DNA of 64,000 nt from a virus (IMGVR_UViG_3300038968_000013:49317-113316); one strand, 5' to 3'. Counted from the first letter of the stretch, positions 23,660-63,738 are shown. Made by a program: numbers and translations. The notes: generated by a model from the letters alone, not told the origin.

Positions 23660-25957
23660 TTACTCGTCGTCATCGCCGCCCGCAGGGACGGTGGTGCAAC
23701 GACAGTTGCAAACATCAGCTGCCGACCCGAGGACATCACCTGGCCAGCGAAGCCCGTTACTGAAGGTTTCCCCAACAACGACAACCTCATAGTCGATATC
23801 GTGTCCAGCACGAACGAGGTCATCTTGACTTGAAAGCCAGCCATGGCGCTCGACACCCTGCTCTGCGTATTCAAGCGAACGCGCCTCGTTTACCGCCGAC
23901 AGCATTTCTGTCCGCGCGATGCGGTTTGCCCGCGAGGTTGTGAGGGTCATCACTTCCTTCGTGGCATCCTCCAGCGCCGCCGCTTGCTGGTTGATCGTAA
24001 GCCCTTCCATAGCGGTCTCAGCGAGCGAGGCCTGCAGCAGTTTACGTACCGTCTTTTCAATGTCCTGTGGCACCTGGCGAATCTGAATGACGCGCGTATC
24101 CAGCAGCGTCTTCATCTTGTGCGAGTCAATGGCGATGGGATCTTCGCCGAGCGTCATCGCGGCAGACTTGATACCCAGCTCAATGGCTGCCTTGTAGTGC
24201 TTACGCGAGAACTCCTCGATCTGGCTCTGCGCCTTTGGAACGTCAAACATGATGCCGTCAAGAAGATCATCAAGCACACCGCGCTTCTGCATGCGTACCG
24301 TCTTCTTGACCTTAGCGAGCATTTCCTTCCGCAGCCCGTAGAAGAAGTTATGCAGCTTGCGATAGAAGGCGTGCTCTAGCGGCACCAGCATGCGCTCAAA
24401 ATCCTCGGCCAGCTTGGCGCGGCGAGCTGAGCGAGTCTTGCCCTTGAAAGACTTCTCTCCGACCGCCTTCTCGACGGCCTTGTCCTTCTTCTTTTTCTTC
24501 TTGGCGCTCTCTACGGCGTCGTCAATTTCCTTCTGTTCCTTCTCGTCGTCATCCATCACGGCGTCATCAGTGGCGCCGTTCGACTGATCCTCAAGAAGGA
24601 GATCGTCCCCAAGCCCTGCCGGGTCACCAAGACCCATCACCATCGCCATGCTGGCTTGCTCACCAGCAAGCATACGGGCAGGAACGAGGTTGTTGGCCAC
24701 GAGCCAATCGTCACCCCATTCGACACTTTCGAAGCCAAGTGAAAGCACCCGATTGATCTGGTTGATCGGCCAGCCCATCTGGAAGAACTTCATGGCAATC
24801 TCTGCCTTCTCTCCCATGTCCTCGCGCATCGCGGGGATCTCATCGATGGCAAACCCAGCAACCTTCCCTGGTGCGTACGACTTCACCAGCGTCTTTTGCA
24901 GCACAGACGACAGACGGTTGATCTTCGGCACGATGTTGTTTTCGAACAGCATGCGCTGCGCCGACTCAACACCATCACGGCTCAGTCCTGCGCCCTGGAA
25001 GTCATTTAGTAGGGGCACAGGTACACGGAAGCAGGCAGCGATCTCCTGACGGGACCACTTACGCCCTTCCACAAAATCCATTTCTTTCTGCGAGAGACCA
25101 AGCTCTTCGAGCTGCATCCCCCCGTGAACAATGGCGACCTTGTGAATGTTGCGCGGCCCACCCCACTGGTCCTCGATACCCATACGAATCTGACGCATCT
25201 GCTCTTCCGTAAGGAAGATGTCATCCGGACGTGTCTCCGGTGGCGTGAAGGTCAGCTTCAGTGACGGGCTTGATCCGTTCAGAAAGAACTTCTCGTCGAA
25301 CACCTGGCGCGCAATGTCCGCACGAATAGACTTCATCGCGGCCTGCAGCGGCCCAATGCCCATGATCTGATTGTGTGATGCGGGGTCGGTGTACTTGAGG
25401 TGAATCAGCGAATCACCAGGGACGTTAAACGCCACCTTGCCAATCTTGACGGACCAGCTAACGAACTTCCCTGACGCATGCTCATAGTTCGGCGACACAT
25501 GCTGCACCCCGAGGGCGAGCAGTGAGCGAGGAAGTCCCCGCGAGTTGGGAAGGTCTGGCATGATCCAGGCATTCCCAGCCGCCTCTAGGTAGAGCGCAAT
25601 AGTTTCGATGAACTGACAGAAGTCGGCGTAGATGCCGGGGTAGGGGTCCGCAAGGAGGTCGAGCAGCGGGTCTTCCTTCACCGCAATCGGCAGCCCATCT
25701 TCGTCAGGCTGCTCTAGGTACATACGGTAGGGAACAGACGCCATCGCCTGCGAAATGATCGTCATACAGGCGTAGGTTGTGCTGTGATTGGAAAATGGGT
25801 CGCGGTAACCGGACTCGCCGCCGTAGGTCTGAATCTCACGACCCTCAATAAAGGCACGCTGGATTTCAGCTAGGCTCGTCGAACGCTGCTGTGGTGCAGG
25901 CGTCTTCGGTGCGAAGAACGGAAGGTTCTTTATAGTAGTTCGAAGGCGATCAAACAT
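23660..25957 (-). CDS. portal protein fused to MuF-like minor head protein domain
   Basis: 765 aa. The N-terminal ~430 aa are portal-like. A poly-Lys linker (KKKKKKDK) separates them from a C-terminal domain ending RAGHDIDYEVVVVGETFSNGLRWPGD, typical of Mu gpF / SPP1 gp7 domains. Confidence 0.75.
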   Translation of the reverse strand: MFDRLRTTIKNLPFFAPKTPAPQQRSTSLAEIQRAFIEGREIQTYGGESGYRDPFSNHSTTYACMTIISQAMASVPYRMYLEQPDEDGLPIAVKEDPLLDLLADPYPGIYADFCQFIETIALYLEAAGNAWIMPDLPNSRGLPRSLLALGVQHVSPNYEHASGKFVSWSVKIGKVAFNVPGDSLIHLKYTDPASHNQIMGIGPLQAAMKSIRADIARQVFDEKFFLNGSSPSLKLTFTPPETRPDDIFLTEEQMRQIRMGIEDQWGGPRNIHKVAIVHGGMQLEELGLSQKEMDFVEGRKWSRQEIAACFRVPVPLLNDFQGAGLSRDGVESAQRMLFENNIVPKINRLSSVLQKTLVKSYAPGKVAGFAIDEIPAMREDMGEKAEIAMKFFQMGWPINQINRVLSLGFESVEWGDDWLVANNLVPARMLAGEQASMAMVMGLGDPAGLGDDLLLEDQSNGATDDAVMDDDEKEQKEIDDAVESAKKKKKKDKAVEKAVGEKSFKGKTRSARRAKLAEDFERMLVPLEHAFYRKLHNFFYGLRKEMLAKVKKTVRMQKRGVLDDLLDGIMFDVPKAQSQIEEFSRKHYKAAIELGIKSAAMTLGEDPIAIDSHKMKTLLDTRVIQIRQVPQDIEKTVRKLLQASLAETAMEGLTINQQAAALEDATKEVMTLTTSRANRIARTEMLSAVNEARSLEYAEQGVERHGWLSSQDDLVRAGHDIDYEVVVVGETFSNGLRWPGDVLGSAADVCNCRCTTVPAGGDDDE

Positions 25958-25968
25958 CCAGGTGGTCC

Positions 25969-27441
25969 TTACATAACTCGGATTGACGCCGAGTAGTCAT
26001 ACTGTCGTTGGTTGGTGACCGTCGCAAAAGCTAGTAGTAGCGCGTCGGCACGATCGGGTGAGGGCAGTCCTCGCTTGAGAAGTTCATCCTTAGTTTCGAC
26101 ACGCCGTTGCGTTCCGTTACGTGCATAACGCACTTCCCGGTTACACAGCTGGTGCTGTAGCTCCTCGTCTCGTTGAGGGATGGAGATGCGGTCCATTGCA
26201 AGCTTACCGTCCACGAACCAAAGCTCATCTCCCCGACTGGCATAATGCTTAGGGTTCCGTGGCTTTGATCCGTTGTTAATTCCAGAGACAGTCCATCCCT
26301 GACTACGGAGAGCATCAATCACTCCTCCACCAATCCCGACTTCATCAACCACAATCAGCGTGTCATCCTGGCACTTCAGGAAGGCGTCTGGATCAAGGTC
26401 AAACTTATTCGGGTTCCCAAAGGGCTGCCGCCACCACATGGTTGCCGCCTGTACCGTCATCCCCGCAACTGACATCAGGTCGAGGCGCTTGTAGGTCTGA
26501 ATGTCCAGCACAAGGTTGCCGCGACGAACGAGGATCACGGTTTCACAGTCCCCGTACCGGGCAACGTCTACCCCAATCTGAATCGGGAGCAGCGGCATAT
26601 CCTCGCAGAAGCGGTCAAATGCCTGCTCCACCTCATCGTAACCGAAGATCGTCTTTCCCTCTGCGATCATCGGGAAGAGCCCATGGACCTTCGCCTGCAC
26701 AATCGGGGAATCTTCACCGTGTAGATCAATCAGGCGCTGGCTCGCTTCGGGGTTCACAAATGAAGACTCCCGTTGATCTACGTGCCGTGTAATCCAGTAC
26801 TTTTTGTATGACGGCTTGGTGAAGATCTCGTAGAAACGACCCGAGCGCCGTTGCGGGTTTCCAATGCAGAGACAGACGTTCCGAATGCCGCCCGTGAGAG
26901 TCGCCATCTTCGCGTCGAATTGTGCATCATCGACCCCGCTAGCCTCACTGATGACAATAAGAAGGTAGTCAGCATGGAGTCCCTGACCAGCTTCGGCATG
27001 GGCGTCCCCGGTTACCGCTGAGACACGTTTAGCCGCGATCGACTGGAAGGCCCGCCACCGCTCACCATATCCACGCACCTTTATTGTAGAGGGAGTCCAC
27101 TCCAGGAGCTGCGGTAGGTACTCAGAGTCGGAAATAACGCGTTGGATCTCCATCCAGAGCGATACTTGGATTTGCTGGGCACTCGCGGACATCGCCGCAA
27201 CCTTCGCGTACGGATGCACGAGCAGGAACCACACAATGGCCACCGACGCGAGGAAGTCTTTACCGACTCCTGTTCCCGCCGCGACCGCGACAAGATCGTT
27301 CGTGGCAAGAGACATCAGTACTTCCTCTTGCCACTTATCGAGCTTCTTTACTTGAGCAACTTCATAGGCAAACTTGACGGGATCTTTGCGGTAATCTTCC
27401 CATCGTGCCTGTAGTAGCTCTAGATCACTACTTTGACTCAC
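25969..27441 (-). CDS. terminase large subunit
   Basis: 490 aa with a P-loop-like AAGTGVGKD. The length and the position upstream of the portal fit TerL. Confidence 0.75.
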   Translation of the reverse strand: MSQSSDLELLQARWEDYRKDPVKFAYEVAQVKKLDKWQEEVLMSLATNDLVAVAAGTGVGKDFLASVAIVWFLLVHPYAKVAAMSASAQQIQVSLWMEIQRVISDSEYLPQLLEWTPSTIKVRGYGERWRAFQSIAAKRVSAVTGDAHAEAGQGLHADYLLIVISEASGVDDAQFDAKMATLTGGIRNVCLCIGNPQRRSGRFYEIFTKPSYKKYWITRHVDQRESSFVNPEASQRLIDLHGEDSPIVQAKVHGLFPMIAEGKTIFGYDEVEQAFDRFCEDMPLLPIQIGVDVARYGDCETVILVRRGNLVLDIQTYKRLDLMSVAGMTVQAATMWWRQPFGNPNKFDLDPDAFLKCQDDTLIVVDEVGIGGGVIDALRSQGWTVSGINNGSKPRNPKHYASRGDELWFVDGKLAMDRISIPQRDEELQHQLCNREVRYARNGTQRRVETKDELLKRGLPSPDRADALLLAFATVTNQRQYDYSASIRVM

Positions 27442-40599: not shown

Positions 40600-40798
40600 G
40601 CGTATTGGTACAGAAATAACGTACTACACGATGTGCGATCGATGCTACGCGGTATTCGCGTTGTCCTTGCTGTAGCACTCGTAGCAGCGCACCGGGTACC
40701 CACACCAACGGTGTGTCAGTGTTCCACACCGACAGCATCGTTTACGGCGGTACCCATAGCGACAGTCTTCGCAGGTTGCTGGATTGTGTTTCATAGAG

Positions 40799-40872
40799 CG
40801 GAACCGAGGGGGATCGAACCCCTAACCTTTCCCGTGACAGGGGAGCGTTCTAGCCAATTGAACTACGGCTCC
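40799..40872 (-). tRNA. tRNA-Asp (GTC)
   Basis: Manual fold. Acceptor GGAGCCG/CGGTTCC, D-arm GTTC..GAAC, anticodon loop CTGTCAC and T-arm AGGGG TTCGATC CCCCT. Confidence 0.6.
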
Positions 40873-40877
40873 GTGAG

Positions 40878-40951
40878 AGTCGATACCCGGATTCGAACCG
40901 GGACCGCTAGTTTGGAAGACTAGCATGCTAACCGTTGAACACTACATCGAC
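40878..40951 (-). tRNA. tRNA-Gly (TCC), probable
   Basis: Manual fold. Acceptor GTCGATG/TATCGAC, anticodon stem CTAGT/ACTAG with loop CTTCCAA, and T-arm CCCGG TTCGAAT CCGGG. The D-stem is weak, and the 5' end overlaps the ORF 40928..41182. Confidence 0.45.
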
Positions 40952-54582: not shown

Positions 54583-54711
54583 TTACTGTCCTCCCATCCC
54601 TACGATGATGTACTTGAAGTAAGCCGCGCCCGAGATAAACCCGAGCGCGACTCCCACACCCACCGCCACCCCAAACACCACCGACCGAAAAAACGTCTTT
54701 ACGTTGTCCAT
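54583..54711 (-). CDS. small membrane peptide
   Basis: MDNVKTFFRSVVFGVAVGVGVALGFISGAAYFKYIIVGMGG. The start overlaps the SPFH gene stop codon. Confidence 0.3.
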   Translation of the reverse strand: MDNVKTFFRSVVFGVAVGVGVALGFISGAAYFKYIIVGMGGQ

Positions 54712-55796
54712 TACTGTGCCTGCTTCAAGTCGACCATGGGCATCGCGGGACCGGAGACGAGGGAGAGTTTTCCATCCCACTTCCGAATACGTTCCCACTC
54801 GACCAGTGTCGGCGTGATTGACTTGGCGAGGATTTCGTTTGCTTGTGCCTCGGCCTTGGCGCGGATCAGCTGTGCATCGGCTTGTCCTTGAGCGAGCGCC
54901 TTAGCCTGGTCACCCTCGGCTTGCTTGGCGCGCACCATGTTCTCGGCTTGGATTGCAGCCTGTGTCGCGGCGATAGCCTGGTTGACTGCCTGCATGACCT
55001 TATCGTCGACCCGCAGTCCCGAGACGAAGGCGAACGATTCCACCTTGATACCGTCCGGTGCCATACGAGTCTGCAGCTCCTTGAGCACGTTGGCCTCTAG
55101 CTCGCGGCGCCCTTCTCCGAGAATGAGCATCGTGTCCATCGTCTGGCCATAGTGGGCCACGATGTCACGAATCTGAGAGCGCATGTATGTGTGTGTGATG
55201 CGTCCGATGTCCTGGCGGAACTTCACGAAGAGCTGCGGAATCTTCTCCGGTTCCAGCGAGTAGGCCAGGAAGACGTCGGCGTTCACGAGGCTCGACTGCT
55301 TCGAGTTGAACGTGATGCTCTCGTCGCCGGGGGACTCTGGGGTATCGTCCTTGGTGAATACCTGCTGCTGCAGGAAGATCGGGAACAGATGAATCTCGGT
55401 CTTGAAGGGGTTGTACACCTGAATGCCAGTAACGGCAGTCGCGTTAGCAACGCCCTTATCTGAGCCCCAGAGGTTCACCTTGACGCCTACGTAGCCAGGC
55501 GGCACCCGTGTATATCCACAGCCGCTACCTGTCAGCAGAAACGCGGACAGCGCCAGCGGCAGCAGCACGGCGGGGAACGATACCTTACCCACGTTCTCGG
55601 TGAGCCAGGCGAATCCCATGTAGAGTAGCGTCGCGGCCAGCATGAAATCGGCCAGACACACGAGCAGCCCAAAGATAGCGAGGAACGTGCTCTTCGCGGA
55701 CCACATTTCGATCCCGAGCGTCCACACCCCCACGACCACGAGTAGCGCGCAGATGACGCTACCTACGACTTGAACGAGAAACCGCAATCCACTCAT
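54711..55796 (-). CDS. SPFH/band-7 (flotillin/HflK-like) membrane protein
   Basis: N-terminal TM helices followed by an SPFH-like core, then an Ala/Gln-rich coiled-coil tail (AQAENMVRAKQAEGDQAKALAQGQADAQLIRAKAEAQA). Confidence 0.65.
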   Translation of the reverse strand: MSGLRFLVQVVGSVICALLVVVGVWTLGIEMWSAKSTFLAIFGLLVCLADFMLAATLLYMGFAWLTENVGKVSFPAVLLPLALSAFLLTGSGCGYTRVPPGYVGVKVNLWGSDKGVANATAVTGIQVYNPFKTEIHLFPIFLQQQVFTKDDTPESPGDESITFNSKQSSLVNADVFLAYSLEPEKIPQLFVKFRQDIGRITHTYMRSQIRDIVAHYGQTMDTMLILGEGRRELEANVLKELQTRMAPDGIKVESFAFVSGLRVDDKVMQAVNQAIAATQAAIQAENMVRAKQAEGDQAKALAQGQADAQLIRAKAEAQANEILAKSITPTLVEWERIRKWDGKLSLVSGPAMPMVDLKQAQ

Positions 55797-55822
55797 ACCA
55801 TCCTCCCCTTATTGTACTCGGT

Positions 55823-57544
55823 TTACTTAGCCTGCATTCGATACCGCAACTCCGACTCGTGCTGACTTCTCAGCGCGGTAAGGACTTGCGCAGAGTCGAT
55901 TGGAGTGTATAGCTCCCGAACCATGGCGACTCTTTCGTCCCAGCTGCGACTACGAAACGCCTCTGGCTTTTCGTACCATTCTTCGGGCACGTCGAAATCG
56001 CTAGCATTCGCGAGTACCGTATCGATAGTGTTTTTGATTGAACGTCCGGTGAAGTGTTCACTTTGCTTCCTGAAATCCTCGCACTCCATCCCGAGGTCGA
56101 GCCACGTATCCGCCATGTCAAAAGCGGGAGCCTTGTGCTTCGTCTGCGCCCTACGTGGACGGGACAGTGGCTCGTATCTCGTTGATGGAATCTTGACGAT
56201 ACCCTGTTTGGTGGCTTTGCGCAAGAGGAGCGCGATCAGATCCGCGTAATCCTCTGGCGTCTCCGGTCCCATGACTGGAAAGCGCGCGACGAATCGCTGA
56301 CGGAGAGCCGCGTCGGTGGCGGTCGGAGCATTCGTGGCTGCAATTGTGATGTATGAGCCCGAATAGGCTGAACCGACACCAGAGAAGAAATCCATCAGCC
56401 CCTTGAGAATGTCACGATCGCCGCCACCCATGCCGGGAGAGGAACGATCGCCACCCGCGAAGAGCAGATCCACGTCGTCGAGACACATGATCGAGAGACG
56501 ACCCGGATCTCTCAGGTCGTTCAGTAGATCATTTAGAAGCGTAGCTGTTTTGCCATACCATTCCGACTTCACGTCCGATGCACCCAGCGACTTGAAGTAG
56601 GTTGGCATACCGATTTGGTCAGCGCGACGCTGTAGCAGCGTCATCGCCATCCTCATGATACTGCTTTTACCAGTGCCCGGAGGTCCGTCCAGGAGGATGC
56701 TTTCGAGAATACCCCCCATTTCACAAAATGGATTCTTCCCGAGCTGTGGGTCGTAGCACGCGAGACGATCCATTTGCCGCCTGAGCTGTAGTACCGCAGC
56801 GTCGTTGCCGACGATCTCTTCCGGTTGAACCGGGACAAAGGAAACACTTGTAGCATCTTTTGCTTTCTCTACCGTTGTTCCCGTGATGGTGAACTTCTGG
56901 TATCGGAAGGTGACTTGATCGAGAGACGATCCGAGTGTCTTATGAGCACGGGCTTTAATCCGAGCTTGTTCAGCAACCCAGCTCCAGTAGTCGCGAGAAA
57001 TACTAAGCTCGTCGCCAACGATATGGACGATAGGATTGCCGTGCTGATCTTTTGCTTGAATGGCATCGATGTACCGTGCAAGGCAAAGCCCGAGGTCGCC
57101 GTCGATAGATCCACGGATATCTAGCTTCAGGATGCTTGTGTCGAGAGTTGCGAATTGACCTTCCCGACGTCGCAGCAGGCGAGCCGCTTCCACTTGAATG
57201 AAGCTCGCTGCTACGAACGTCGAGTAGGCAGAAATGAATGCTGCGCGTTCTTGAATCTCCGGAGAGATAACGCCACCGCGTGCTTGAAGCTCTTTGGCAG
57301 CCTCGCGCTGCCCGGTGCGTTCCATCAGATGGTCCACGAACCAGTAGTAGAAGCACACGGCTTGCCGAATGAGGAAAACGAGAGCCATTTCCTCAGGCAG
57401 GACTCGCCAGGTCTCTTGTGGCGAGAGGTCTTTCAGAATGTCTTCGAGGTCGCGTTCACCGTCGATCTTGGAGAGCGCCCGTTCGGCGGTCGCAATCCAC
57501 TTATCGAGGTCTTCAGCCTTGATGGGGAGGGCTTCGCGTTCCAT
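55823..57544 (-). CDS. AAA+ ATPase (classic-clade AAA domain) with ~330-aa N-terminal domain of unknown function
   Basis: Walker A LLDGPPGTGKSS, Walker B IMCLDDVDLL and sensor/Arg-finger region IAATNAPTATDAALRQRF. Confidence 0.7.
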   Translation of the reverse strand: MEREALPIKAEDLDKWIATAERALSKIDGERDLEDILKDLSPQETWRVLPEEMALVFLIRQAVCFYYWFVDHLMERTGQREAAKELQARGGVISPEIQERAAFISAYSTFVAASFIQVEAARLLRRREGQFATLDTSILKLDIRGSIDGDLGLCLARYIDAIQAKDQHGNPIVHIVGDELSISRDYWSWVAEQARIKARAHKTLGSSLDQVTFRYQKFTITGTTVEKAKDATSVSFVPVQPEEIVGNDAAVLQLRRQMDRLACYDPQLGKNPFCEMGGILESILLDGPPGTGKSSIMRMAMTLLQRRADQIGMPTYFKSLGASDVKSEWYGKTATLLNDLLNDLRDPGRLSIMCLDDVDLLFAGGDRSSPGMGGGDRDILKGLMDFFSGVGSAYSGSYITIAATNAPTATDAALRQRFVARFPVMGPETPEDYADLIALLLRKATKQGIVKIPSTRYEPLSRPRRAQTKHKAPAFDMADTWLDLGMECEDFRKQSEHFTGRSIKNTIDTVLANASDFDVPEEWYEKPEAFRSRSWDERVAMVRELYTPIDSAQVLTALRSQHESELRYRMQAK

Positions 57545-57663
57545 TAGTACGCCAGGAAGTAGTACACGTTAAGACTGCACGAGCCGAGAAGTAGGAGAAG
57601 CGAGACGCCCGAGACCCACATGAGGGTCGTAAGCGCATCCCCGATGCCACGTCCGTCCATTAC
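57544..57663 (-). CDS. possible 39-aa membrane peptide
   Basis: MDGRGIGDALTTLMWVSGVSLLLLLGSCSLNVYYFLAY sits between the coiled-coil and AAA genes. The upstream part of the track ORF is antisense shadow. Confidence 0.2.
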   Translation of the reverse strand, partial: VMDGRGIGDALTTLMWVSGVSLLLLLGSCSLNVYYFLAY

Positions 57664-58772
57664 TCGTGCCGTACGCCTTCGTGAGCCTCGCGCTCGACGT
57701 CCGCAAACTCTTTGAGGAAGTCGTTGACGTGACCGGTAAGCTGTTGCAGCAGCTCCCGCGAACGCTCTGGGCTGATTGCCGCGTGCTTGAGGCGCTGTGC
57801 CGCGATTTCGAGTGCCGCTCCTGCCACCGCCACGTTGTGATCCGTGATCACTTCCACGGAACGGTTGAGCGCAGGATCGACCGCCTGGTAGCGTTCCAGC
57901 TGAGCGCGCGCACGCACTGCCGTCATGGAGTTTTCGAGCACGACGGCCAGGTTCTGCCACTTCTCCAGCAGGTTCCGACGCATGCCGTGAACCGACTCGA
58001 TGGAGAGCGCAGCTGCATCCTTCGACTTCTGCAGCGTGGGGATGGCGCGCTGAGCCTCGGTGACGATGGTAATGAATTCCATCACGTCGAGACGCACCTT
58101 CTCCAGGTCACGCTTCAGAGCTTCGAATTCGGCTTCCTTCGCGGGCCGATCCTTCTGCTCGATGGTTCCGGACTTCAGCTCCAGGTCGAGCGCATTGTAG
58201 CGCCCTTCCAGCTCTGCTCTGCGCTGTTCCGCTTGGAGTTGACGCGGGGTCGCTTCCTTGAGCTTGGACAATACGGTATCGATGCTCTTCCCGTACGACT
58301 CGACGTTGGACACGTACTCCGCTTCTACCGTCCCCAACTTCTCGATCGTCTCCTGCACGAAGGTCTCGACTTCGCGACACGCCTCTTCGACCGAGGCAGT
58401 GTCGAGCCGCGAAACACGGAGCGCCTGAGCCTTGTTCATCGCCTTGTCGGAGAACTGCCCGAGGAACGCCAGGGTCTTTTCCTTGACGCCCCGGAATTCG
58501 CCCGACCGCGCGATTTGCAGCCCGATGGCCTCGATGCGCTGAATCACGTCAGAGCACAACGCCCGAAGCTCCTGCTCCATGGCGGCGCCCTTCTCGTGTG
58601 CGTCGGCCAACTTCTGGCTACCGTGCGTGACGCGTTGCTTGCCCTGCTTGACCTCGGTGGCTTGCCGTTCCTGCTTGATGTCCAGGTCCGAAATCACCGT
58701 GTCGTTCTGCAGCGATTCGCGGATAGCTGCCCGCCCGGTACGCTGCGCCGTTTGTTCCCTCACTTGCGCCAC
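57660..58772 (-). CDS. all-helical coiled-coil protein (TelA/YaaN-like?)
   Basis: 370 aa. GTG start with a GGAGGTGG RBS. Long heptad-like Glu/Arg/Leu-rich segments. The family assignment is tentative. Confidence 0.45.
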   Translation of the reverse strand: MAQVREQTAQRTGRAAIRESLQNDTVISDLDIKQERQATEVKQGKQRVTHGSQKLADAHEKGAAMEQELRALCSDVIQRIEAIGLQIARSGEFRGVKEKTLAFLGQFSDKAMNKAQALRVSRLDTASVEEACREVETFVQETIEKLGTVEAEYVSNVESYGKSIDTVLSKLKEATPRQLQAEQRRAELEGRYNALDLELKSGTIEQKDRPAKEAEFEALKRDLEKVRLDVMEFITIVTEAQRAIPTLQKSKDAAALSIESVHGMRRNLLEKWQNLAVVLENSMTAVRARAQLERYQAVDPALNRSVEVITDHNVAVAGAALEIAAQRLKHAAISPERSRELLQQLTGHVNDFLKEFADVEREAHEGVRHE

Positions 58773-58799
58773 TGTGCCACCTCCGTTTGATAGTATGCG

Positions 58800-58925
58800 A
58801 ACATGTTGTTTGTGACCATCTTTTTACCGGTGCTCTAACACTGAGCTACTTCCACATGTGGAAGGCTGGACTTTAACCAGCGACCCCCGGTCCTTCATGA
58901 GAACAGTCAACAGTCGGCTCGCAAG
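58800..58925 (-). ncRNA. Y RNA-like permuted tRNA mimic, E1
   Basis: Reading 5' to 3' on the minus strand, in order: leader GCGAGCCGAC, anticodon-stem 3' strand ACCGG, variable loop GGGTC, T-arm GCTGG TTAAAGT CCAGC, acceptor 3' strand CTTCCAC-A, a 1-nt link, acceptor 5' strand GTGGAAG, TA, D-arm GCTC AGTGTTA GAGC, A, and anticodon-stem 5' strand CCGGT. The 7-bp acceptor and 5-bp anticodon stems are perfectly complementary between the two halves. Confidence 0.5.
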
Positions 58926-59109
58926 CCGTTAACATTGGTCCCGATGCCGTGGACACAACCCCCGGCTCTCCCGCACCAACGCGGTTGTTCTGTGTACATG
59001 TCGGGCTACACCGAATCGTGCTGCCCCGGCCGGGTCAACAGCAGAGATTCATCTGGCAGACATTTAACCAACACGGTCTAGTTTCTGAACTACATCGGGA
59101 AAAGAAAAA

Positions 59110-59246
59110 GCGAGCATGTAGCTTCTTTGAGGAGTGTATTTTTGACGGTTGCTCTACCAACTGAGCTACATTCTTGGTTGCCCTTGAATGGCTGGATTCG
59201 AACCAGCGACCCACTGTGTGTGATAACCCTCAAACGTTCGGCTCGC
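59110..59246 (-). ncRNA. Y RNA-like permuted tRNA mimic, E2
   Basis: Same order as E1. T-arm GCTGG TTCGAAT CCAGC, acceptor halves CATTCAA / AAGAATG (5 of 7 bp) joined by a GGGCAACC loop, and D-arm GCTC AGTTGGTA GAGC. Leader GCGAGC pairs with trailer GCTCGC. Confidence 0.5.
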
Positions 59247-59328
59247 GAAAAATGACCCCGAAGTCATGCTAATTATGCATGAATACTCAGCCTCGATGAG
59301 CATCGGGGAGAGAAGCTGTTTCAAAAAG

Positions 59329-59411
59329 TACCGGTGACAGGATTCGAACCTGCAAGAGTTTCCCCTACTAGTTCCTAAGACTAGCGTGTACGCCAATGCC
59401 ACCTCACCGGC
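59329..59411 (-). tRNA. tRNA-Leu (TAG), class II
   Basis: Manual fold. Acceptor GCCGGTG/CACCGGT, anticodon arm CTAGT CTTAGGA ACTAG, a 13-nt variable arm and T-arm GCAGG TTCGAAT CCTGT. Collinear with E. coli tRNA-Leu. Confidence 0.6.
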
Positions 59412-59421
59412 AAAAAGAAAG

Positions 59422-59531
59422 TGGGTAGGGGTGGAGTTGAACCACCAAGTAAGCTCTCAAGTAGGCATACTCAACTAGTATTTTCAGCCCACCATCCAGC
59501 TATTCTCTGTACAACAAATGTACACCTACCC
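59422..59531 (-). ncRNA. 110-nt tRNA-like RNA (perfect 7-bp acceptor + T-arm, ~35-nt extra internal sequence)
   Basis: 5' GGGTAGG ... GGTGG TTCAACT CCACC CCTACCC A 3'. The D-arm is a 4-6 bp palindrome (G)TGTACA..TGTACA. No canonical anticodon arm could be placed by hand. Confidence 0.35.
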
Positions 59532-59595
59532 ATAGTCTCGGACAACGGATTGCGGTCTCACTGTACCGCGCTTAATCCCCGAGCTTAAAACGGTT

Positions 59596-59650
59596 GGGGC
59601 CAGGCTGGATTCGAACCAGCAGAGAGGGATGGCAAATCCCCCACGAACTG
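59596..59650 (-). ncRNA. tRNA-like 3' module (anticodon-like hairpin GGGGA TTTGCCA TCCCT + T-arm GCTGG TTCGAAT CCAGC + CTGGCCC)
   Basis: No matching 5' acceptor strand either upstream or downstream. It shares a GCTGGCAAAA submotif with E4. Confidence 0.3.
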
Positions 59651-60100
59651 AGCGGATCAAAGCGTGCAAGCTTTTGCCAGCTCAGCGACACTACCCGGTC
59701 TAGACTTCCTCAGCCCGCCGCCATTGCCAACCATGCGACTTACTGACCCCAGAAAACTAACCACGAACATAAAAGTGAAGAGCGAGCTGTCAGCTGGGTA
59801 CCCTTGATCTACTCGTACCGCCCCATTGATGCGAAGGCTTATCAGCTTCGTAGAGGGTATCACCCCAGGTGACTTGTCATCCATCTTACACCCCGGATGC
59901 ATAGGTGTGCTGCCTTCATCGGTGGACCTGACCTTTTCACTACTCAGTTAAACGTTGTTTCGAGGGCGCCTTGTCCGGTCTCCCCCTGGCTTTTTTATCA
60001 AAGTAGAGAACACTCTTCGATTGGCTCGTGGTTCTTGTCCCAGCAATCCTACCCCTCAGTGTGCTAATGAGTCTCAGATCTCAGCCGGGACCAAAACTAT

Positions 60101-60235
60101 ATACCCTGAACGTATGGGCGTCGATGCGGTTTAACGCTCTGCCATTGAGCTAACTCTGCAGGTTAGTGCAGAGCCTGGGACTCGAACCCAGATCTTTCGA
60201 TTATCATTCGAGAACACACCAACAGTCGGCTCAGG
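60101..60235 (-). ncRNA. Y RNA-like permuted tRNA mimic, E3
   Basis: Leader GTTTCACCCTGAGCCGACTGTTG..., T-arm CTGGG TTCGAGT CCCAG, acceptor 3' strand GCTCTGC-A, loop CTAACCT, acceptor 5' strand GCAGAGT, TA, D-arm GCTC AATGGCA GAGC. Head ACCCTGA pairs with tail TCAGGGT. Confidence 0.45.
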
Positions 60236-60284
60236 GTGAAACTTAGATTGTCAAAGAACAAGGTGGAGAACGAGTTACAGAAAG

Positions 60285-60365
60285 CAGGGATTAGTGGGAT
60301 TTGAACCCACATCAGCCGGTTTTTGCCAGCTTCGTCATCCAGTAGCGATAACCCTGCCTAGTTCG
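60285..60365 (-). ncRNA. tRNA-like module E4 (shared leader + T-arm GTGGG TTCAAAT CCCAC)
   Basis: Leader GAGAGCCGAAC matches those of E1-E3. The tRNA-like features are incomplete. Confidence 0.3.
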
Positions 60366-60380
60366 GCTCTCCGGATCTTT

Positions 60381-61043
60381 TTACAGCGCCACTTCGCGTG
60401 GCGTGTGAACTGACGGCATCGTAGCACCGATGGATGGCTTTGTCAAATCCTGATGCTTTGCCATCCAATCCTGCACGAACCAGAGCTGTCCACAGCCGCC
60501 GCCGATGTCGTCCTGTCCCGCAGGATCGAAGCAGCGCACCGAGTACCCGATCGTCTTCATCATGTCCATGAAGTTGGTCGCGAGGGTCCGCTGACGATGA
60601 TTCGCCGCAGCCACGCTCTCGTCCCGCTCACAGATGACGCTGATCGTTGCTTCCCACGTATCCGGGTGAAACAAGCGGCGCAGGTTGTTGACGTCCTGCC
60701 ACGATACGTTACCCGGATGCGCGCAGTAGTTGAAGAACGGGCGGCGCCCGGTGACGTTGTAGAAGCGATTGCCTTGGTACGCGATCTGCGCGAGGTTCAG
60801 CTTTGCCTTGAACGGAATGAGCTGATCGCGCTTCTCGTCGGTGCTCTCATGAACCGAGAATTGCAGCCCGATGGTAGGAATCTTCCGCGCCGCTTCCATG
60901 ATCGGGTCGTAATCGACGTCCGGAGCACTCGTGGAAATGAGCAGCGAGAAGTTCGGGTAGAGGAAGTACAGGTACTCCATCGCCCTGATCAGTTCCTTTT
61001 GGTTGAGCATTTGTTTACACCAATTGTAAGTAAGATAACCCAC
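60381..61043 (-). CDS. hypothetical protein downstream of rsr
   Basis: 220-aa ORF. No motif recognised. Confidence 0.4.
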   Translation of the reverse strand: MGYLTYNWCKQMLNQKELIRAMEYLYFLYPNFSLLISTSAPDVDYDPIMEAARKIPTIGLQFSVHESTDEKRDQLIPFKAKLNLAQIAYQGNRFYNVTGRRPFFNYCAHPGNVSWQDVNNLRRLFHPDTWEATISVICERDESVAAANHRQRTLATNFMDMMKTIGYSVRCFDPAGQDDIGGGCGQLWFVQDWMAKHQDLTKPSIGATMPSVHTPREVAL

Positions 61044-61160
61044 TACCCGGTCGGCTCACCGTATGCCGTTATGTCTGAGACGCGAACATGTAGACGCCTA
61101 GGGCTGTTTTCATTTAGGCAATGGTAACCCTAGAGCTATCGGCTCGCGCGTATCTTGTCG

Positions 61161-62777
61161 TTACAGACCCTTCGCGAACTCCGAGATTAGCTGCGGGGTG
61201 GCAGTGTCGAAGCCCACCACGTCGAGCTGACCCGGATCGTTTGGATCTGCGATGGTGAAGTTGGTCGCAGTCATGCCGACCGTTACCATCTTGCAGTCCT
61301 TCTTGTTCATGCGCGTACGGAACTGGCGCAGAGCAGTGCTCGCGTGCGTGTTCCCGGCCCAAACCTCGTTGTCCGTGATGATCACGAAGCAATCGACGTC
61401 GAGGCTATGCTGCATCGCGTACTTCATTGCGACCGCACCGTCCGTACCACCGAAGTTGGCGTCCTGAGCAGCGCGCGCAGCATCACGGAGCGACATGCCC
61501 GGATGGATACGAAGATCCTTGAAGTGATGCGCGAATCCACCGATGAAATAGTTGCTCTCGGTGTTTGCGATCACGAGCGCCATTGCTGCTGCGCCGATGC
61601 ACGGAGTCAGACCCGGCACGCCCGCGATGCTGCCGCCCGCCATCGAGCCCGAGACGTCGACTCCCAGGAAGAAGTTCTTCCCGGTCGGCTCGACCGCCTT
61701 GAACGCGAGGTAGAACGCCTCGTCGAGGGCCTTGACCACCTTCTGCGAAGGTGTCCAGGTCTTGGACATGTCGCGGGCACCACGCCCCGCCGCGTACGTC
61801 AGGTTCGCAGCCAGGATCTGAATCGGATGCACACGGCCCTTGATGATCGCGTCCTGGTTGCCCAGAAGCTTCACGATGTCCTTCTCGGCCTGCGACAGCG
61901 GCTTCAGCAGTCCGACACGCGTCATGGTCGCCAGGTTGCGGATGACCATGGTGATCCCGCCCGTCGACAGCAGCGCCTCCCAAACCTCTGGAGCGTTCAG
62001 CAGCTGCGTCGGGATGATCTCGCGCGGCAGGTTGAAATCGGTGATCAGCTGCACCGCAGTCTTCACGTCGGCCTTGGTAGCCCCCGTGATTGCCTGCATG
62101 ACACGCGCACCCTCGATCATGTCCGGACCCTTGGTGAAGTCTTCCTTCTTCAGGGCGAACTCGAAGACAGCACGGCGCATAGCATCGTCGGTCTTCGGAT
62201 GCGTCAGACGCAGGAGGTCACGATGCGACCAACCGTCACGCTGCTGGTACTTCACGACCTGCAGTGCCAGCTTGTCGACCGGCTTGGCAAGGTACCAATC
62301 ACGCACCGCGTTCTTCAGCGCACGACCCCAGCCACGATACTGGCGGGCGAAGGCGATGAAATGGAACAGATGCGTTCCAGTACGCGCGACCTTGTGCAGA
62401 TTGGCGAGCGCGTAACGCTTCACGTCGTCGCTACCCTCGGAGGCAGCGTATGCCAGTGCCAGCAGCGCCGGATCGTTCTTCGGCGCGCGACCGTCCTGCG
62501 AAATCTGGACGATCTCGTTGACGAGACGCATGCCATCCTCCAGGAGGCACGCCTTGACGGCGTTCAGGCTCTCCTTGGTGTGCTGGCGCTGGTCAGCGTA
62601 GTACGTCCCACCCTCGGTGCCGAGGATCAGGAAGCGACGCAGATGCATCCAATGCCCGGTGGCAAAAACGTAACCACCCGCATGGTTCTTCACCTGGCGC
62701 GCGTCCAGCGGCTCCGACTCCGGAACCGGCTTCGAAATCTCGTTCAGTAGATAGCTTCCCTTGCGTCCCATCGTCAT
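61161..62777 (-). CDS. rsr: Ro60/Rsr ortholog (TROVE domain + C-terminal vWA/MIDAS domain)
   Basis: GGYVFATGHWMHLRRFLILGTEGGTYYADQRQ...ISQDGRAPKNDPALLALAYAAS aligns with the N-terminus of the Ro sixty-related protein (..RFLILGSEGGTYY..RAPKND). GVDVSGSM is a MIDAS motif. Confidence 0.85.
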   Translation of the reverse strand: MTMGRKGSYLLNEISKPVPESEPLDARQVKNHAGGYVFATGHWMHLRRFLILGTEGGTYYADQRQHTKESLNAVKACLLEDGMRLVNEIVQISQDGRAPKNDPALLALAYAASEGSDDVKRYALANLHKVARTGTHLFHFIAFARQYRGWGRALKNAVRDWYLAKPVDKLALQVVKYQQRDGWSHRDLLRLTHPKTDDAMRRAVFEFALKKEDFTKGPDMIEGARVMQAITGATKADVKTAVQLITDFNLPREIIPTQLLNAPEVWEALLSTGGITMVIRNLATMTRVGLLKPLSQAEKDIVKLLGNQDAIIKGRVHPIQILAANLTYAAGRGARDMSKTWTPSQKVVKALDEAFYLAFKAVEPTGKNFFLGVDVSGSMAGGSIAGVPGLTPCIGAAAMALVIANTESNYFIGGFAHHFKDLRIHPGMSLRDAARAAQDANFGGTDGAVAMKYAMQHSLDVDCFVIITDNEVWAGNTHASTALRQFRTRMNKKDCKMVTVGMTATNFTIADPNDPGQLDVVGFDTATPQLISEFAKGL

Positions 62778-62927
62778 CCCCTCACATTCGGTTATCGGCT
62801 CACACGGTAGGTTTTAAGACACCACTTACCCGGCCCAGCCACGCTTGCGCTTTCGATTCGGCCCGTGTGCTCAGGAAACAGAGCTTATGCTATCCTGATG
62901 GTTGTGTCAAGCGGTCGCGCAGATTTT

Positions 62928-63098
62928 TTAGCAGTCGTCTTCTTCGAGAGCAGCGGCCCACGCGTCTTCGAGGTCGTAGGTGTCGAAAATTTCACCGCAG
63001 TTGTTGCATTCGAACTCGTAGACTTCACCGTCGATGTCGTCTTCCAGATAGTCCGACTCGACGTCTCTCGATCCACATTCGATACACCGCACCGCCAT
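62928..63098 (-). CDS. small acidic zinc-ribbon protein (56 aa)
   Basis: MAVRCIECGS...CNNCGEIF... has two CxxC pairs. It is below the track's length cut-off. Confidence 0.4.
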   Translation of the reverse strand: MAVRCIECGSRDVESDYLEDDIDGEVYEFECNNCGEIFDTYDLEDAWAAALEEDDC

Positions 63099-63099
63099 G

Positions 63100-63738
63100 T
63101 CATCCCCCTTGAATGATCGACAGGATATGTTGAGCGGAAATCGGCGCGTAGTTCCACACGTCGACTCCGACGTTGATACGCTTGTCGAGAACCTTCCAGG
63201 CTTCGTGAACGTGGCCGCAGAGCAACCACTGGTTCGGGTTGTACTCCGGACGAAACTCTTCGAACCGCACTTCGTCGGAATGATCCGCGTTGACGCGCGC
63301 TTCCAGATCCGGGAGGTGGGCGAGAGTTACAACGGGACCATCGATTCCCAGCTGCAGCTCCAGAGGTGGCTGCCAGATTTCAGAAATGCCACCCCACTCC
63401 TTGTATTGTGCTTCGTGCTTGTCGCGATGCTTCGTGGAATGCCCGTCGCGCCCCTTGTCCCAGCAGTTGTCATGGTTGCCAGGAACCACGATCTTGGTAC
63501 CCCGGCACCAGCTGAGCCACGGGACCGTTTCGGCACGCTTCCCCATGGCAACGTCGCCGACGTGAATGACGGTTGCACCTTCCGGAACAACCGCATTCCA
63601 GTTGAGCACAAGACCCTTGTTCATGCTGGGTACATCAGCCCATGGCCTCGTGCAGTACGTGAGGATATTGCCATGCCCCCAATGTGTGTCGGAGGTAAAG
63701 TAAAGCTTACTAATATCCTCCCATACTTTTCTGATCAT
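63100..63738 (-). CDS. calcineurin-like metallophosphoesterase
   Basis: FTSDTHWGH, IHVGDV, GNHD and GHVH form the dimetal phosphoesterase motif set. Confidence 0.65.
   Translation of the reverse strand: MIRKVWEDISKLYFTSDTHWGHGNILTYCTRPWADVPSMNKGLVLNWNAVVPEGATVIHVGDVAMGKRAETVPWLSWCRGTKIVVPGNHDNCWDKGRDGHSTKHRDKHEAQYKEWGGISEIWQPPLELQLGIDGPVVTLAHLPDLEARVNADHSDEVRFEEFRPEYNPNQWLLCGHVHEAWKVLDKRINVGVDVWNYAPISAQHILSIIQGG

What the first reader, a model, noticed from the sequence alone, without database searches (positions are those of the whole stretch)
58775..62777. rsr (Ro60) next to an RNA island of tRNA-like modules: candidate multi-copy Y RNA locus in a phage
Ro60/Rsr proteins bind Y RNAs, and bacterial YrlA-type Y RNAs are known to carry a tRNA-mimicking domain. 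Just downstream of an unambiguous rsr gene there is a 1.6-kb gene-free stretch (58.8-60.4 kb). It holds one canonical tRNA (Leu-TAG) interleaved with at least five tRNA-like modules. None of those modules folds as a normal cloverleaf, and all sit on the rsr strand. Four copies of a Y-like RNA in one locus would be unusual.
Basis: partly seen in the sequence, partly recalled or inferred. Interest (0 to 1): 0.85.

Follow-up and report, generated by a model that had tools for sequence, protein, structure and literature searches.

The report
Phage Ro60 gene with Y-RNA array
A tailed phage carries a Ro60/Rsr gene followed by an array of at least six small structured RNAs built like bacterial Y RNAs (three mimic tRNA), a real tRNA-Leu and two unexplained tRNA-like RNAs; it is a large example of a known kind of locus, not a new kind.

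Summary
A 1.6-kb stretch with no called genes (58.8-60.4 kb) holds one true tRNA-Leu(UAG) and six other T-arm-bearing modules, all on the rsr strand.

The interpretation also holds. Three modules (B, F, G) have the permuted T arm - acceptor-like hairpin - D arm domain of YrlA-type Y RNAs. Six complete modules (M1, A, B, C, F, G) and one truncated module (M2) share a terminal helix, NNNGAGC/GYUCNNN, which flanks an unpaired CGA(A/C). This is the arrangement described for Ro60 binding.

Covariation supports the fold: 95% of cells are paired against 69% in shuffles, and 20 of 26 pairs show compensatory changes.

The ORF is a deletion remnant of an RlmN-like radical-SAM gene.

With my covariance model, 25 of 85 phage rsr loci have at least 2 hits and 12 have at least 3. 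CcrColossus has about seven modules by eye. Chen et al. 2014 already reported multiple YrlAs near rsr.

Two tRNA-like RNAs without Y stems (D and the almost invariant E) remain unexplained.

The parts
61161..62777 (-). rsr (Ro60/Rsr, TROVE + vWA domains), 538 aa (public gene calls start 2 codons later, giving 536 aa)
   Evidence: Pfam TROVE and vWA_Ro60; phrog_850 RNA-binding protein; PDB 2NVO Rsr 1e-129 and Ro60 1e-100
62796..62868 (-). Possible Y-like element in the rsr 5' leader: a CACACGG...CCGUGUG helix encloses GCCGAA and is followed by GAGCCGA 24 nt before the start codon. Tentative.
   Evidence: Sequence; MFE fold; many other phage loci have a GAGCCGA hairpin module just upstream of rsr
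61080..61149 (-). M1: hairpin-type Y-like RNA (like YrlB/Yrn2), about 70 nt, GCGAGC/GUUCGC terminal helix
   Evidence: Fold; R1 full-length hit, 23.8 bits; hairpin-class alignment with an invariant GAGCCGA..GGTTAYC block and 9/13 compensatory pairs
61011..61061 (-). M2: 5' half of a Y-like module (GAGCCGACCGGGUAGUGGGUUAUC...). It is cut off by a deletion of about 625 bp and is intact in L007 and L414.
   Evidence: a 14-nt identity with the 5' end of human Y4 RNA (string confirmed in the literature)
60381..61010 (-). 209-aa ORF: the C-terminal two-thirds of an RlmN/Cfr-like radical-SAM RNA methyltransferase. It lacks the CxxxCxxC cluster motif and is probably a deletion remnant.
   Evidence: NCBIfam RlmN/Cfr C-terminal matches; 310-348-aa homologues with PF04055; motif present in P0122 and P0124 but absent here; deletion mapped against L414
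60264..60373 (-). A: Y-like terminal helix (GGAGAGC/GUUCUCC) enclosing a tRNA-like domain in normal topology, with a T arm and an anticodon-like arm that has a non-standard 6-8-nt loop (Yrn1-like)
   Evidence: Folds; weak tRNA hit, 21.6 bits; relaxed ARAGORN gives tRNA-?(aaaa)
60104..60236 (-). B: YrlA-type Y RNA (terminal helix CCCUGAGC/GUUCAGGG; T arm, acceptor-like hairpin, D arm)
   Evidence: Rfam YrlA 26.5 bits; fold; A2 covariation; R1 96.9 bits, as a training sequence
59761..60031 (-). C: long (about 270 nt) Y-like module (CACGAGCCAAUCGAAG...AUGUUCGUG) with a variable interior. Orthologues in L414 and L005.
59595..59750 (-). D: tRNA-like RNA with an 8-bp acceptor-like stem, a T arm and a long extra arm. 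It has no GAGCC bracket. Function unknown.
   Evidence: Fold; acceptor and T stems conserved with covariation in window, L414 and L005
59534..59586 (-). Conserved irregular hairpin preceding E
   Evidence: Differs only at 2-3 positions near its 5' end in L007 and L414
59422..59531 (-). E: 110-nt tRNA-like RNA (7-bp acceptor-like stem GGGUAGG/CCUACCC plus T arm, with a long insert). Sequence almost invariant. Function unknown.
   Evidence: 100% identical in L007 and 2 substitutions in L414, while the neighbouring tRNA-Leu has diverged; no Rfam hit
59328..59411 (-). tRNA-Leu(UAG), canonical class II tRNA
   Evidence: ARAGORN and Rfam, 45.1 bits; compensatory changes in the anticodon and variable stems against L007 and L414
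59110..59246 (-). F: YrlA-type Y RNA. It carries the exact GNCGAANG motif (GCCGAACG) and the terminal helix GCGAGC/GCUCGC.
   Evidence: Rfam YrlA 35.9 bits
58797..58922 (-). G: YrlA-type Y RNA (GCGAGC/GUUCGC)
   Evidence: Rfam YrlA 40.4 bits; orthologues in L007, L005 and L414

Best explanation
The locus is a phage rsr-Y RNA operon with an expanded and mixed set of Y RNAs. Inferred mechanism: rsr and the downstream RNAs are transcribed on the minus strand and cut into individual RNAs of 65-270 nt.

Each Y-like RNA closes its 5' and 3' ends into a 6-9-bp helix (NNNGAGC/GYUCNNN). Next to that helix sits an unpaired CGA(A/C), followed a few bases later by GGUUAUC or UGUUCUC. This is the arrangement that published work ties to Ro60/Rsr docking: the GNCGAA motif of Chen et al. 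2014 and the CGAA bulge of the phiLo Yrl RNAs.

The other end of each RNA is a different effector domain:
- a permuted tRNA mimic (T arm, closed acceptor-like hairpin, D arm) in B, F and G;
- a normal-topology tRNA-like domain in A;
- a plain hairpin in M1;
- a long variable domain in C.

By analogy with the D. radiodurans, Salmonella and phage phiLo Ro60-Y RNA-PNPase complexes, the phage Rsr ring would use these RNAs as alternative adaptors or gates. They could couple it to host PNPase or to tRNA-recognising factors during infection.

Shown here: gene identity, RNA architecture, covariation, synteny and strand. Inferred: Rsr binding, processing, and the identity of any partners.
For: - Rsr identity.
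- YrlA covariance-model hits on the rsr strand, in the same score range as the YrlA hits in four known Ro-encoding phages.
- MFE folds of every module give the same terminal helix, internal loop and second stem.
- Alignment A2 (17 modules; three window modules plus 14 from seven other loci): RNAalifold finds a terminal helix of 9 bp, T arm 5, acceptor-like hairpin 8, D arm 4, and 20/26 pairs have compensatory changes. 95.3% of cells are paired against 68.8% when shuffled (0/500 shuffles reach it) and 31-44% when slid.
- Terminal-helix test that does not use complementarity to pick partners: mean contiguous flank pairing 1.22 against 0.66 in permutations (maximum 0.93 in 2000). The high values cluster in rsr-adjacent arrays.
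- The array is kept, with partly different module sets, order and interiors, in relatives whose Rsr is 89% and 65% identical in protein (L007, L005) and in one whose rsr region is 94% identical in DNA (L414).
- All R1 hits in 85 phage rsr loci lie on the rsr strand, and most are within about 0.5 kb of the gene.
- Literature: Y RNAs within 4 kb of rsr on the same strand in 254 bacteria and 22 phages. Phage phiLo Ro60 binds two Yrl RNAs that have a CGAA bulge, and forms a complex with host PNPase.
Against: - No expression or binding data exist for this phage.
- All three YrlA hits are below Rfam's gathering score.
- The strict GNCGAANG motif occurs in only one module (F) and is not enriched in the window as a whole. 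The other modules have GCCGAC, GCCGAU or AUCGAA variants.
- Rfam Y_RNA does not hit the hairpin modules, and the nematode stem-bulge RNA family hits them only weakly.
- A2 mixes paralogues and orthologues, and its structure was predicted on the same alignment, which inflates the pairing statistics somewhat.
- D and E lack the Y-type bracket, so this model does not explain them.
Confidence: 0.8

Rival explanations
1. The island is a decaying phage tRNA gene cluster. The modules would be tRNA pseudogenes or tandem tRNAs that only look like YrlA, with the T arm of one tRNA next to the D arm of the next.
For: - The phage has ordinary tRNA clusters elsewhere (40798-40951; seven more tRNAs just beyond the window in L001).
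- A real tRNA-Leu lies in the island.
- Chen et al. warn that tRNA dimers can score as YrlA. R1 does give a weak partial hit on the true Asp/Gly tRNA pair.
Against: - In B, F and G the T and D arms are joined by a closed hairpin of 5-8 bp with a 4-12-nt loop. There is no room for two acceptor halves, no anticodon arm and no second T arm.
- The modules carry a covarying terminal helix and a conserved 5' motif that tRNAs lack.
- The same module types persist in relatives down to 65% Rsr identity. Decaying pseudogenes would not be expected to persist in this way.
Confidence: 0.04
2. The repeated GAGCCGA...GYUC brackets are not Rsr sites. They would be processing or termination signals, or the ends of small mobile repeats (MITE- or REP-like) that spread within phage RNA islands.
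For: - The array is mosaic. Modules are gained and lost between close relatives, and there is a 625-bp deletion.
- There is an HNH-like fragment in L414 and a coding fragment in L007.
Against: - The brackets are found next to rsr, on its strand, in unrelated phage lineages. Four of the 9 IMG/VR pattern hits are next to rsr, against none of the 72 chance-level hits in bacterial genomes.
- The motif matches the published Ro60-contact motif.
- The module interiors belong to distinct conserved types, not copies of a single element.
Confidence: 0.06
3. Part of the island (D, the hairpin, E and tRNA-Leu) works independently of Rsr. These RNAs could be tRNA-like decoys or substrates for host tRNA-processing, tRNA-modifying or tRNA-cleaving enzymes, placed in the same transcription unit. 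This adds to the main explanation and does not exclude it.
For: - D and E have acceptor-like stems and T arms but no Y bracket.
- E is 98-100% identical in three phages whose tRNA-Leu and Y modules have diverged.
- An RlmN-like tRNA/rRNA methyltransferase gene sits in the same array in L414.
Against: - There is no known family match and no exact counterpart of the E 3' end in GTDB representative genomes or IMG/VR.
- The interior of D is not conserved.
- The proposed function is pure inference.
Confidence: 0.3

Closest known systems
YrlA-type bacterial and phage Y RNAs (Rfam RF02553; S. Typhimurium and M. smegmatis YrlA, mycobacteriophage ET08/Catera-type; Chen et al. 2014, PMC4201824)
   Same: Modules B, F and G match on these points:
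- within 4 kb of rsr, on the same strand;
- 5'/3' terminal helix with a GNCGAA-like 5' strand;
- a YUAY-containing GGUUAUC motif;
- the permuted domain T arm, acceptor-like hairpin, D arm.
Their Rfam scores equal those of the known phage examples I scanned.
   Different: - The scores are below Rfam's gathering score.
- The motif is usually GCCGAC or GCCGAU and not GNCGAA.
- There are three paralogues plus four other Y-like modules in one locus.
- The array lies downstream of rsr and is interrupted by a protein-gene remnant.
Hairpin Y RNAs: S. Typhimurium and M. smegmatis YrlB, D. radiodurans Yrn2 (PMC4201824)
   Same: M1 (and M2 in the relatives) is a second, shorter Y RNA next to rsr. It is a long hairpin with the same Rsr-type stem, as described for every characterised species.
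   Different: The loop is not obviously pyrimidine-rich. There is no sequence similarity to YrlB that I could test.
D. radiodurans Yrn1
   Same: Module A has its tRNA-like part in normal (non-permuted) order, with an anticodon-like arm whose loop is not the standard 7 nt. Chen et al. describe the same for Yrn1 (6-nt loop).
   Different: No sequence homology was shown. The interior of A varies among relatives. The resemblance is architectural only.
Thermus phage phiLo Ro60 with Yrl1/Yrl2 (NAR 2025, PMC12135203)
   Same: A phage-encoded Ro60 with adjacent Y-like RNAs, each having a 5'-3' stem beside a CGAA-containing bulge. This is experimental precedent for binding and for complexes with host PNPase.
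   Different: - phiLo has two RNAs, upstream of the gene.
- Its Ro60 is very distant from this one (E 6e-6, against 1e-129 for D. radiodurans Rsr).
- No tRNA-like domain is reported there.
Caulobacter phage CcrColossus TROVE locus (JX100810)
   Same: By eye, about seven tandem Y-like modules lie upstream of the TROVE gene. They include YrlA-type modules and one normal-topology tRNA-like module that is annotated as tRNA-Gln. R1 finds five of them. The core of window module F is 82% identical to one of them.
   Different: The stem motif differs (GGUGGCGUAG...GUUCCCCC). The modules are annotated as 'terminator' or tRNA, or not at all, in the record.
Metazoan Y RNAs and nematode stem-bulge RNAs (Rfam RF00019, RF01656)
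   Same: The M2 5' strand CCGACCGGGUAGUGGGUUAUC resembles human Y4 CCGAUGGUAGUGGGUUAUC (a 14-nt identity). There are weak full-length RF01656 alignments to hairpin modules.
   Different: No hit reaches significance on the window modules. This is a lead, not evidence of membership.

Membership tests
Ro60/Rsr protein | TROVE (HEAT-repeat ring) domain followed by a vWA domain, about 530 aa | tested here: met
   Pfam PF05731 and PF25045 cover residues 29-535. The protein aligns end to end with 2NVO and with Ro60 structures.
YrlA (RF02553) | Encoded within 4 kb of rsr on the same strand | tested here: met
   B, F and G lie 0.9-2.4 kb downstream of rsr on the minus strand.
YrlA (RF02553) | Permuted tRNA-like domain: T arm, closed acceptor-like hairpin, D arm, with conserved T- and D-loop bases | tested here: met
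   cmscan alignments. RNAalifold and pair counts on 17 modules give T and D arms 100% paired and the acceptor-like hairpin 92% paired, with all 8 of its pairs compensatory. The D loop of G lacks the GG dinucleotide.
YrlA (RF02553) | 5' and 3' ends pair in a stem that carries the GNCGAA(N0-1)G motif on its 5' strand | tested here: inconclusive
   The stem is present and covaries. The exact motif occurs only in F (GCCGAACG). B and G have GCCGACUG and M1 has GCCGAUAG, so all keep G-C-C-G-A but vary at the sixth base.
YrlA (RF02553) | Score at or above Rfam's gathering threshold (69 bits) | tested here: not met
   The window modules score 40.4, 35.9 and 26.5 bits. The YrlA hits in Catera, Cashline, Sparky and CcrColossus score 30-42 bits and also fail, so the threshold excludes the known phage examples I tested.
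Y RNA (functional definition) | Bound and stabilised by Ro60/Rsr in vivo | not testable with these tools
   Needs Rsr immunoprecipitation or EMSA.
Canonical tRNA | Cloverleaf with a 7-nt anticodon loop, called by ARAGORN or Rfam at default thresholds | tested here: not met
   Only tRNA-Leu(UAG) passes. A, B, D, E, F and G fail, and relaxed or intron modes give mismatched or non-standard structures.
tmRNA (considered for D and E) | tRNA-like domain with a G3:U70 pair, a tag reading frame and pseudoknots; detected by ARAGORN or Rfam | tested here: not met
   ARAGORN default and Rfam (E up to 10) give no call. Only junk calls appear at 70% threshold. D has G3-C in its acceptor-like stem.
RlmN/Cfr radical-SAM methyltransferase (the 209-aa ORF) | CxxxCxxC iron-sulfur cluster motif plus the C-terminal CGQL cysteine | tested here: not met
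   The C-terminal GGGCGQL is present, but the N-terminal third that carries CPVGCRFC is deleted. It is present in homologues P0122 and P0124.

The most novel reading that the evidence does not exclude
Phage rsr loci would be modular Y-RNA arrays. One Rsr ring would be re-targeted by a changeable set of adaptor RNAs: tRNA mimics in two topologies, hairpins and long domains.

In this lineage the array would also carry Rsr-independent tRNA-like RNAs. One of them (E, 110 nt) is almost invariant in sequence, which would suit an RNA that titrates or mimics a specific host component, such as a tRNA-processing enzyme or a tRNA-targeting defence enzyme.
Probability: 0.15. Interest if true: 0.75.

Novelty: new member of a known kind. 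Interest (0 to 1): 0.45.

Why it matters
What Ro60 and Y RNAs do in phage infection is still largely unknown. Only one phage Ro60 (phiLo), with two RNAs, has been studied biochemically.

This locus and its three relatives offer a compact natural test set. A canonical Rsr sits next to six or more Y-like RNAs that share one docking helix but carry four different effector domains. This makes it possible to test which domain recruits which partner.

The survey also shows that such arrays are common in phage genomes. In at least some deposited records the modules are unannotated, or annotated as 'terminator' or tRNA, as in CcrColossus. Rfam's YrlA threshold missed every phage example I scanned. Both points matter for annotation.

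Tried and rejected
- Near-identical DNA in the INPHARED phage collection: none. Distant blastn found only tRNA-Leu and one YrlA core.
- Close Rsr relatives in IMG/VR with the single protein as query: none.
- Rfam at gathering thresholds: tRNAs only.
- Extra tRNAs with relaxed ARAGORN, intron mode or tmRNA mode: nothing convincing. I dropped the tmRNA and two-piece tmRNA ideas for D and E.
- Rfam Y_RNA on the hairpin modules M1 and M2: no hit. RF01656 hits only weakly.
- GNCGAANG as a window-wide signal: not enriched (55 found, 55 expected).
- The 3' end of E as an attP core or host tRNA copy: no exact match in the 185,579 representative genomes or in IMG/VR.
- The hairpin-module pattern in bacterial genomes: 72 hits, about the number I estimated by chance, none next to rsr. 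This gave no clue to the host.
It cannot be told from tandem tRNAs without further filtering, so I used it only as a sequence pool.
- Promoter and terminator scans: not above chance. One TTGACA-17-TACGAT site lies at 60446-60418 just before module A.
- PADLOC: no defence-system match for Rsr or for the two ORFs flanking the island. Matches on genes further out (the AAA ATPase and the phosphoesterase) are weak.
- An RlmN-like gene as a general partner of rsr: rejected. It is present only in this lineage among 113 rsr loci.

Full report
**1. What is in the window**

The window is part of a tailed phage. It encodes a portal protein (23660-25957), a large terminase (25969-27441), a major head protein (20695-22020) and a head protease, all on the minus strand. 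It has no close DNA relative among 50,697 deposited phage genomes. The same sequence occurs at 100% identity in four metagenome assemblies (L001-L004).

The 538-aa ORF at 61161-62777 (-) is a canonical Ro60/Rsr:
- Pfam TROVE and vWA_Ro60 and phrog_850.
- An end-to-end match to D. radiodurans Rsr, PDB 2NVO (1e-129), and to vertebrate Ro60 (1e-100). The match to the divergent phage phiLo Ro60 is only 6e-6.
- Ro-like proteins occur in 362 deposited phage genomes, mostly actinophages.

**2.

- Between 60381 and 58772 no gene is called in the public copies. GC falls from about 0.6 to 0.47-0.53. The largest minus-strand ORF (81 aa) has no PHROG match.
- ARAGORN and Rfam find one true tRNA, tRNA-Leu(UAG), at 59328-59411.
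- The T-arm motif GGTTCRANTCC has seven exact matches in the 64 kb. Six are in this island, all on the minus strand, and a seventh island copy has one mismatch (repeat family D1).

**3. What the modules are**

With E-value reporting, Rfam's YrlA model hits 58806-58901 (40.4 bits), 59123-59234 (35.9 bits) and 60115-60214 (26.5 bits). These are below the gathering score of 69. The YrlA hits in four known Ro-encoding phages are below it too: Catera 36, Cashline 42, Sparky 37, CcrColossus 42, 30.5 and 30 bits. The threshold is simply too strict for the phage sequences I tested.

Reading the minus strand and folding each unit shows a common plan:
- a terminal helix NNNGAGC/GYUCNNN;
- an unpaired CGA(A/C);
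- a second stem that begins near GGUUAUC or UGUUCUC;
- a variable distal domain.

Six complete units and one truncated unit follow this plan:

| Unit | Coordinates (-) | Distal domain |
|---|---|---|
| M1 | 61080-61149 | hairpin |
| M2 | 61011-61061 | 5' half only |
| A | 60264-60373 | tRNA-like, normal order, non-standard anticodon-like loop |
| B | 60104-60236 | YrlA-type |
| C | 59761-60031 | about 270 nt, long variable domain |
| F | 59110-59246 | YrlA-type |
| G | 58797-58922 | YrlA-type |

The motif corresponds to the GNCGAA(N0-1)G 5'-strand motif that Chen et al. 2014 link to Rsr recognition. It also corresponds to the 'stem flanking a bulge with CGAA' of the two Yrl RNAs bound by phage phiLo Ro60.

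**4. Is the structure real?**

I ran three tests.

(a) A test that picks 3' partners by sequence motif only (GAGCCGA ... [ACT][CT]GTTC) and then asks whether the flanking bases pair. Mean contiguous pairing is 1.22, against 0.66 in permutations (maximum 0.93 in 2000). The high scores cluster in rsr-adjacent arrays.

(b) An alignment of B, F and G with 14 YrlA-type modules from relatives (L007, L005), other metagenomic phages (L327, L066) and Catera, Cashline, Sparky and CcrColossus.
- RNAalifold returns terminal helix 9 bp, T arm 5, acceptor-like hairpin 8 and D arm 4. Twenty of 26 pairs keep pairing through changes on both sides.
- Pair counting gives 95.3% paired cells, against 68.8% in shuffles (0/500 reach it) and 31-44% when partners are slid.
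- Caveat: the structure was predicted on the same alignment, and paralogues are mixed with orthologues.

(c) The hairpin class (M1 with 12 modules from eight other loci). It has an invariant GAGCCGA..GGTTAYC block and compensatory changes in 9 of 13 pairs.

**5. Relatives**

Three relatives carry the same kind of array after rsr:
- L414: the rsr region is 94% identical in DNA.
- L007: Rsr is 89% identical in protein.
- L005/L006: Rsr is 65% identical in protein.

Shared module types recur, but the module sets, their order and their interiors differ in part. For example:
- L414 runs rsr-M1-M2-M3-M4-rlmN-like gene-A-B-C-D-hairpin-E-tRNA-Leu-F-G.
- L005 runs rsr-M1-B'-A-C'-D-G.

The module types are therefore old and distinct, not recent duplicates. 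The island also changes faster than the flanking genes: 70-92% identity against 94-97%.

**6. How unusual is the copy number?**

- By eye, Catera has three modules (hairpin, YrlA, hairpin), Cashline has two YrlA, Sparky has a YrlA plus a hairpin, and CcrColossus has about seven. One CcrColossus module is annotated as tRNA-Gln.
- A covariance model built from the 17 modules (R1) was run on 85 phage rsr loci. Forty-seven loci have at least one full-length hit, 25 have at least two, 12 have at least three and 6 have at least four. All hits are on the rsr strand.
- An IMG/VR pattern scan for the hairpin type gave 9 loci. Four of them are next to rsr, and one (L327) has five or six modules in 500 nt.
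- The same pattern in bacterial genomes gave only chance-level hits, none near rsr.
- Chen et al. state that every YrlA-like sequence within 4 kb of rsr was reported, giving 355 in 276 genomes.

This locus is at the upper end of a known range.

**7. The ORF inside the array**

The 209-aa ORF (60381-61010) matches the C-terminal part of RlmN/Cfr radical-SAM RNA methyltransferases. It is 65-81% identical to a large family of 310-348-aa radical-SAM proteins.

It lacks their CxxxCxxC motif. Comparison with L414 shows a deletion of about 625 bp in the window. The deletion removed the 3' half of M2, all of M3 and M4, and the first 139 codons of the gene.

**8. What is not explained**

D (59595-59750) has an 8-bp acceptor-like stem and a T arm. 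Both covary among the window, L414 and L005, but its interior is not conserved and it has no Y bracket.

E (59422-59531) and the hairpin before it (59534-59586) are almost invariant. E is identical in L007 and differs at 2 of 110 positions in L414. The adjacent tRNA-Leu, in contrast, differs at many positions through compensatory stem changes.

Neither D nor E matches any Rfam family. They do not look like tmRNA. The 3' end of E is absent from representative genomes and from IMG/VR.

**9. Mechanism and verdict**

Most likely (about 0.8) this is an rsr-Y RNA operon. Its transcripts would be cut into several Rsr-binding RNAs with different effector ends, and these would adapt the phage Rsr ring to host partners such as PNPase or tRNA-recognising factors.
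- Shown: the architecture, covariation, strand and synteny.
- Inferred from the D. radiodurans, Salmonella and phiLo systems: Rsr binding, processing and partners.

The tRNA-pseudogene and mobile-repeat rivals are poorly supported (see the rival entries).

It is a new member of a known kind, large and mixed in its module types. I score interest at 0.45.

Noticed in passing
window 59422-59586 (-); L007 2502-2666; L414 9796-9960: The tRNA-like RNA E and the hairpin before it (about 165 nt together) are almost invariant in three phages: E has 0-2 substitutions in 110 nt. The neighbouring tRNA-Leu and the Y modules have diverged to 70-92% identity. This points to constraint on the primary sequence. 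There is no known family match.
   Followed up: partly
window 60381-61061 (-); L414 7746-9047: The 209-aa ORF is the C-terminal two-thirds of an RlmN/Cfr-like radical-SAM RNA methyltransferase. A deletion of about 625 bp removed its iron-sulfur cluster motif and two and a half Y modules. The intact 348-aa gene sits inside the Y-RNA array in L414. The family is large (thousands of homologues of about 310 aa in metagenomes).
   Followed up: partly
window 62796-62868 (-), upstream of the rsr start: The rsr leader contains GCCGAA inside a CACACGG/CCGUGUG helix, and a GAGCCGA 24 nt before the start codon, next to the ribosome-binding site. Many other phage loci have GAGCCGA, often as part of a hairpin, within 100 nt upstream of rsr. 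This could be another Y RNA or a site for Rsr autoregulation.
   Followed up: partly
window 61011-61061 (-); L007 1774-1878: The M2 5' strand GAGCCGACCGGGUAGUGGGUUAUC shares a 14-nt identity (GGUAGUGGGUUAUC) with the 5' end of human Y4 RNA. The intact L007 copy aligns weakly over its full length to the nematode stem-bulge RNA family RF01656 (16.9 bits, E 0.6).
   Followed up: partly
L339 (CcrColossus JX100810, record coordinates about 108450-109800): By eye, a published jumbo phage has about seven tandem Y-like modules upstream of its TROVE gene. In the record they are annotated as 'terminator' or tRNA-Gln, or not at all.
   Followed up: partly
L414 10060-10340; L007 2340-2495: Coding-looking fragments interrupt the RNA island in the relatives: an HNH-endonuclease-like Cys/His pattern in L414 and a C-terminal ORF fragment in L007. 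This fits homing-endonuclease traffic as a cause of the mosaic structure.
   Followed up: no
window 62928-63738 (-): A calcineurin-like metallophosphoesterase (212 aa, phrog_547) and a 56-aa zinc-ribbon protein lie directly upstream of rsr on the same strand. The arrangement is conserved in L414. A role in RNA-end healing is conceivable but untested.
   Followed up: no
window 54711-58772 (-): Downstream of the island lie a 370-aa protein with no family match, an AAA ATPase (573 aa) and a Band-7/HflC-like protein (361 aa, phrog_200). The Band-7 and NT5C-like genes are syntenic in L005 and L414.
   Followed up: no
window 58923-59109 and 59247-59327 (-): The spacers between F and G and between tRNA-Leu and F hold further hairpins that I could not assign. 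In L414 the equivalent of the F-G spacer carries an ARAGORN 'tRNA-Cys(aca)' call that the window lacks.
   Followed up: no
window 60264-60373 and 59595-59750 (-): Modules A and D share the loop-region sequence AGCUGGCAAAA.
   Followed up: no
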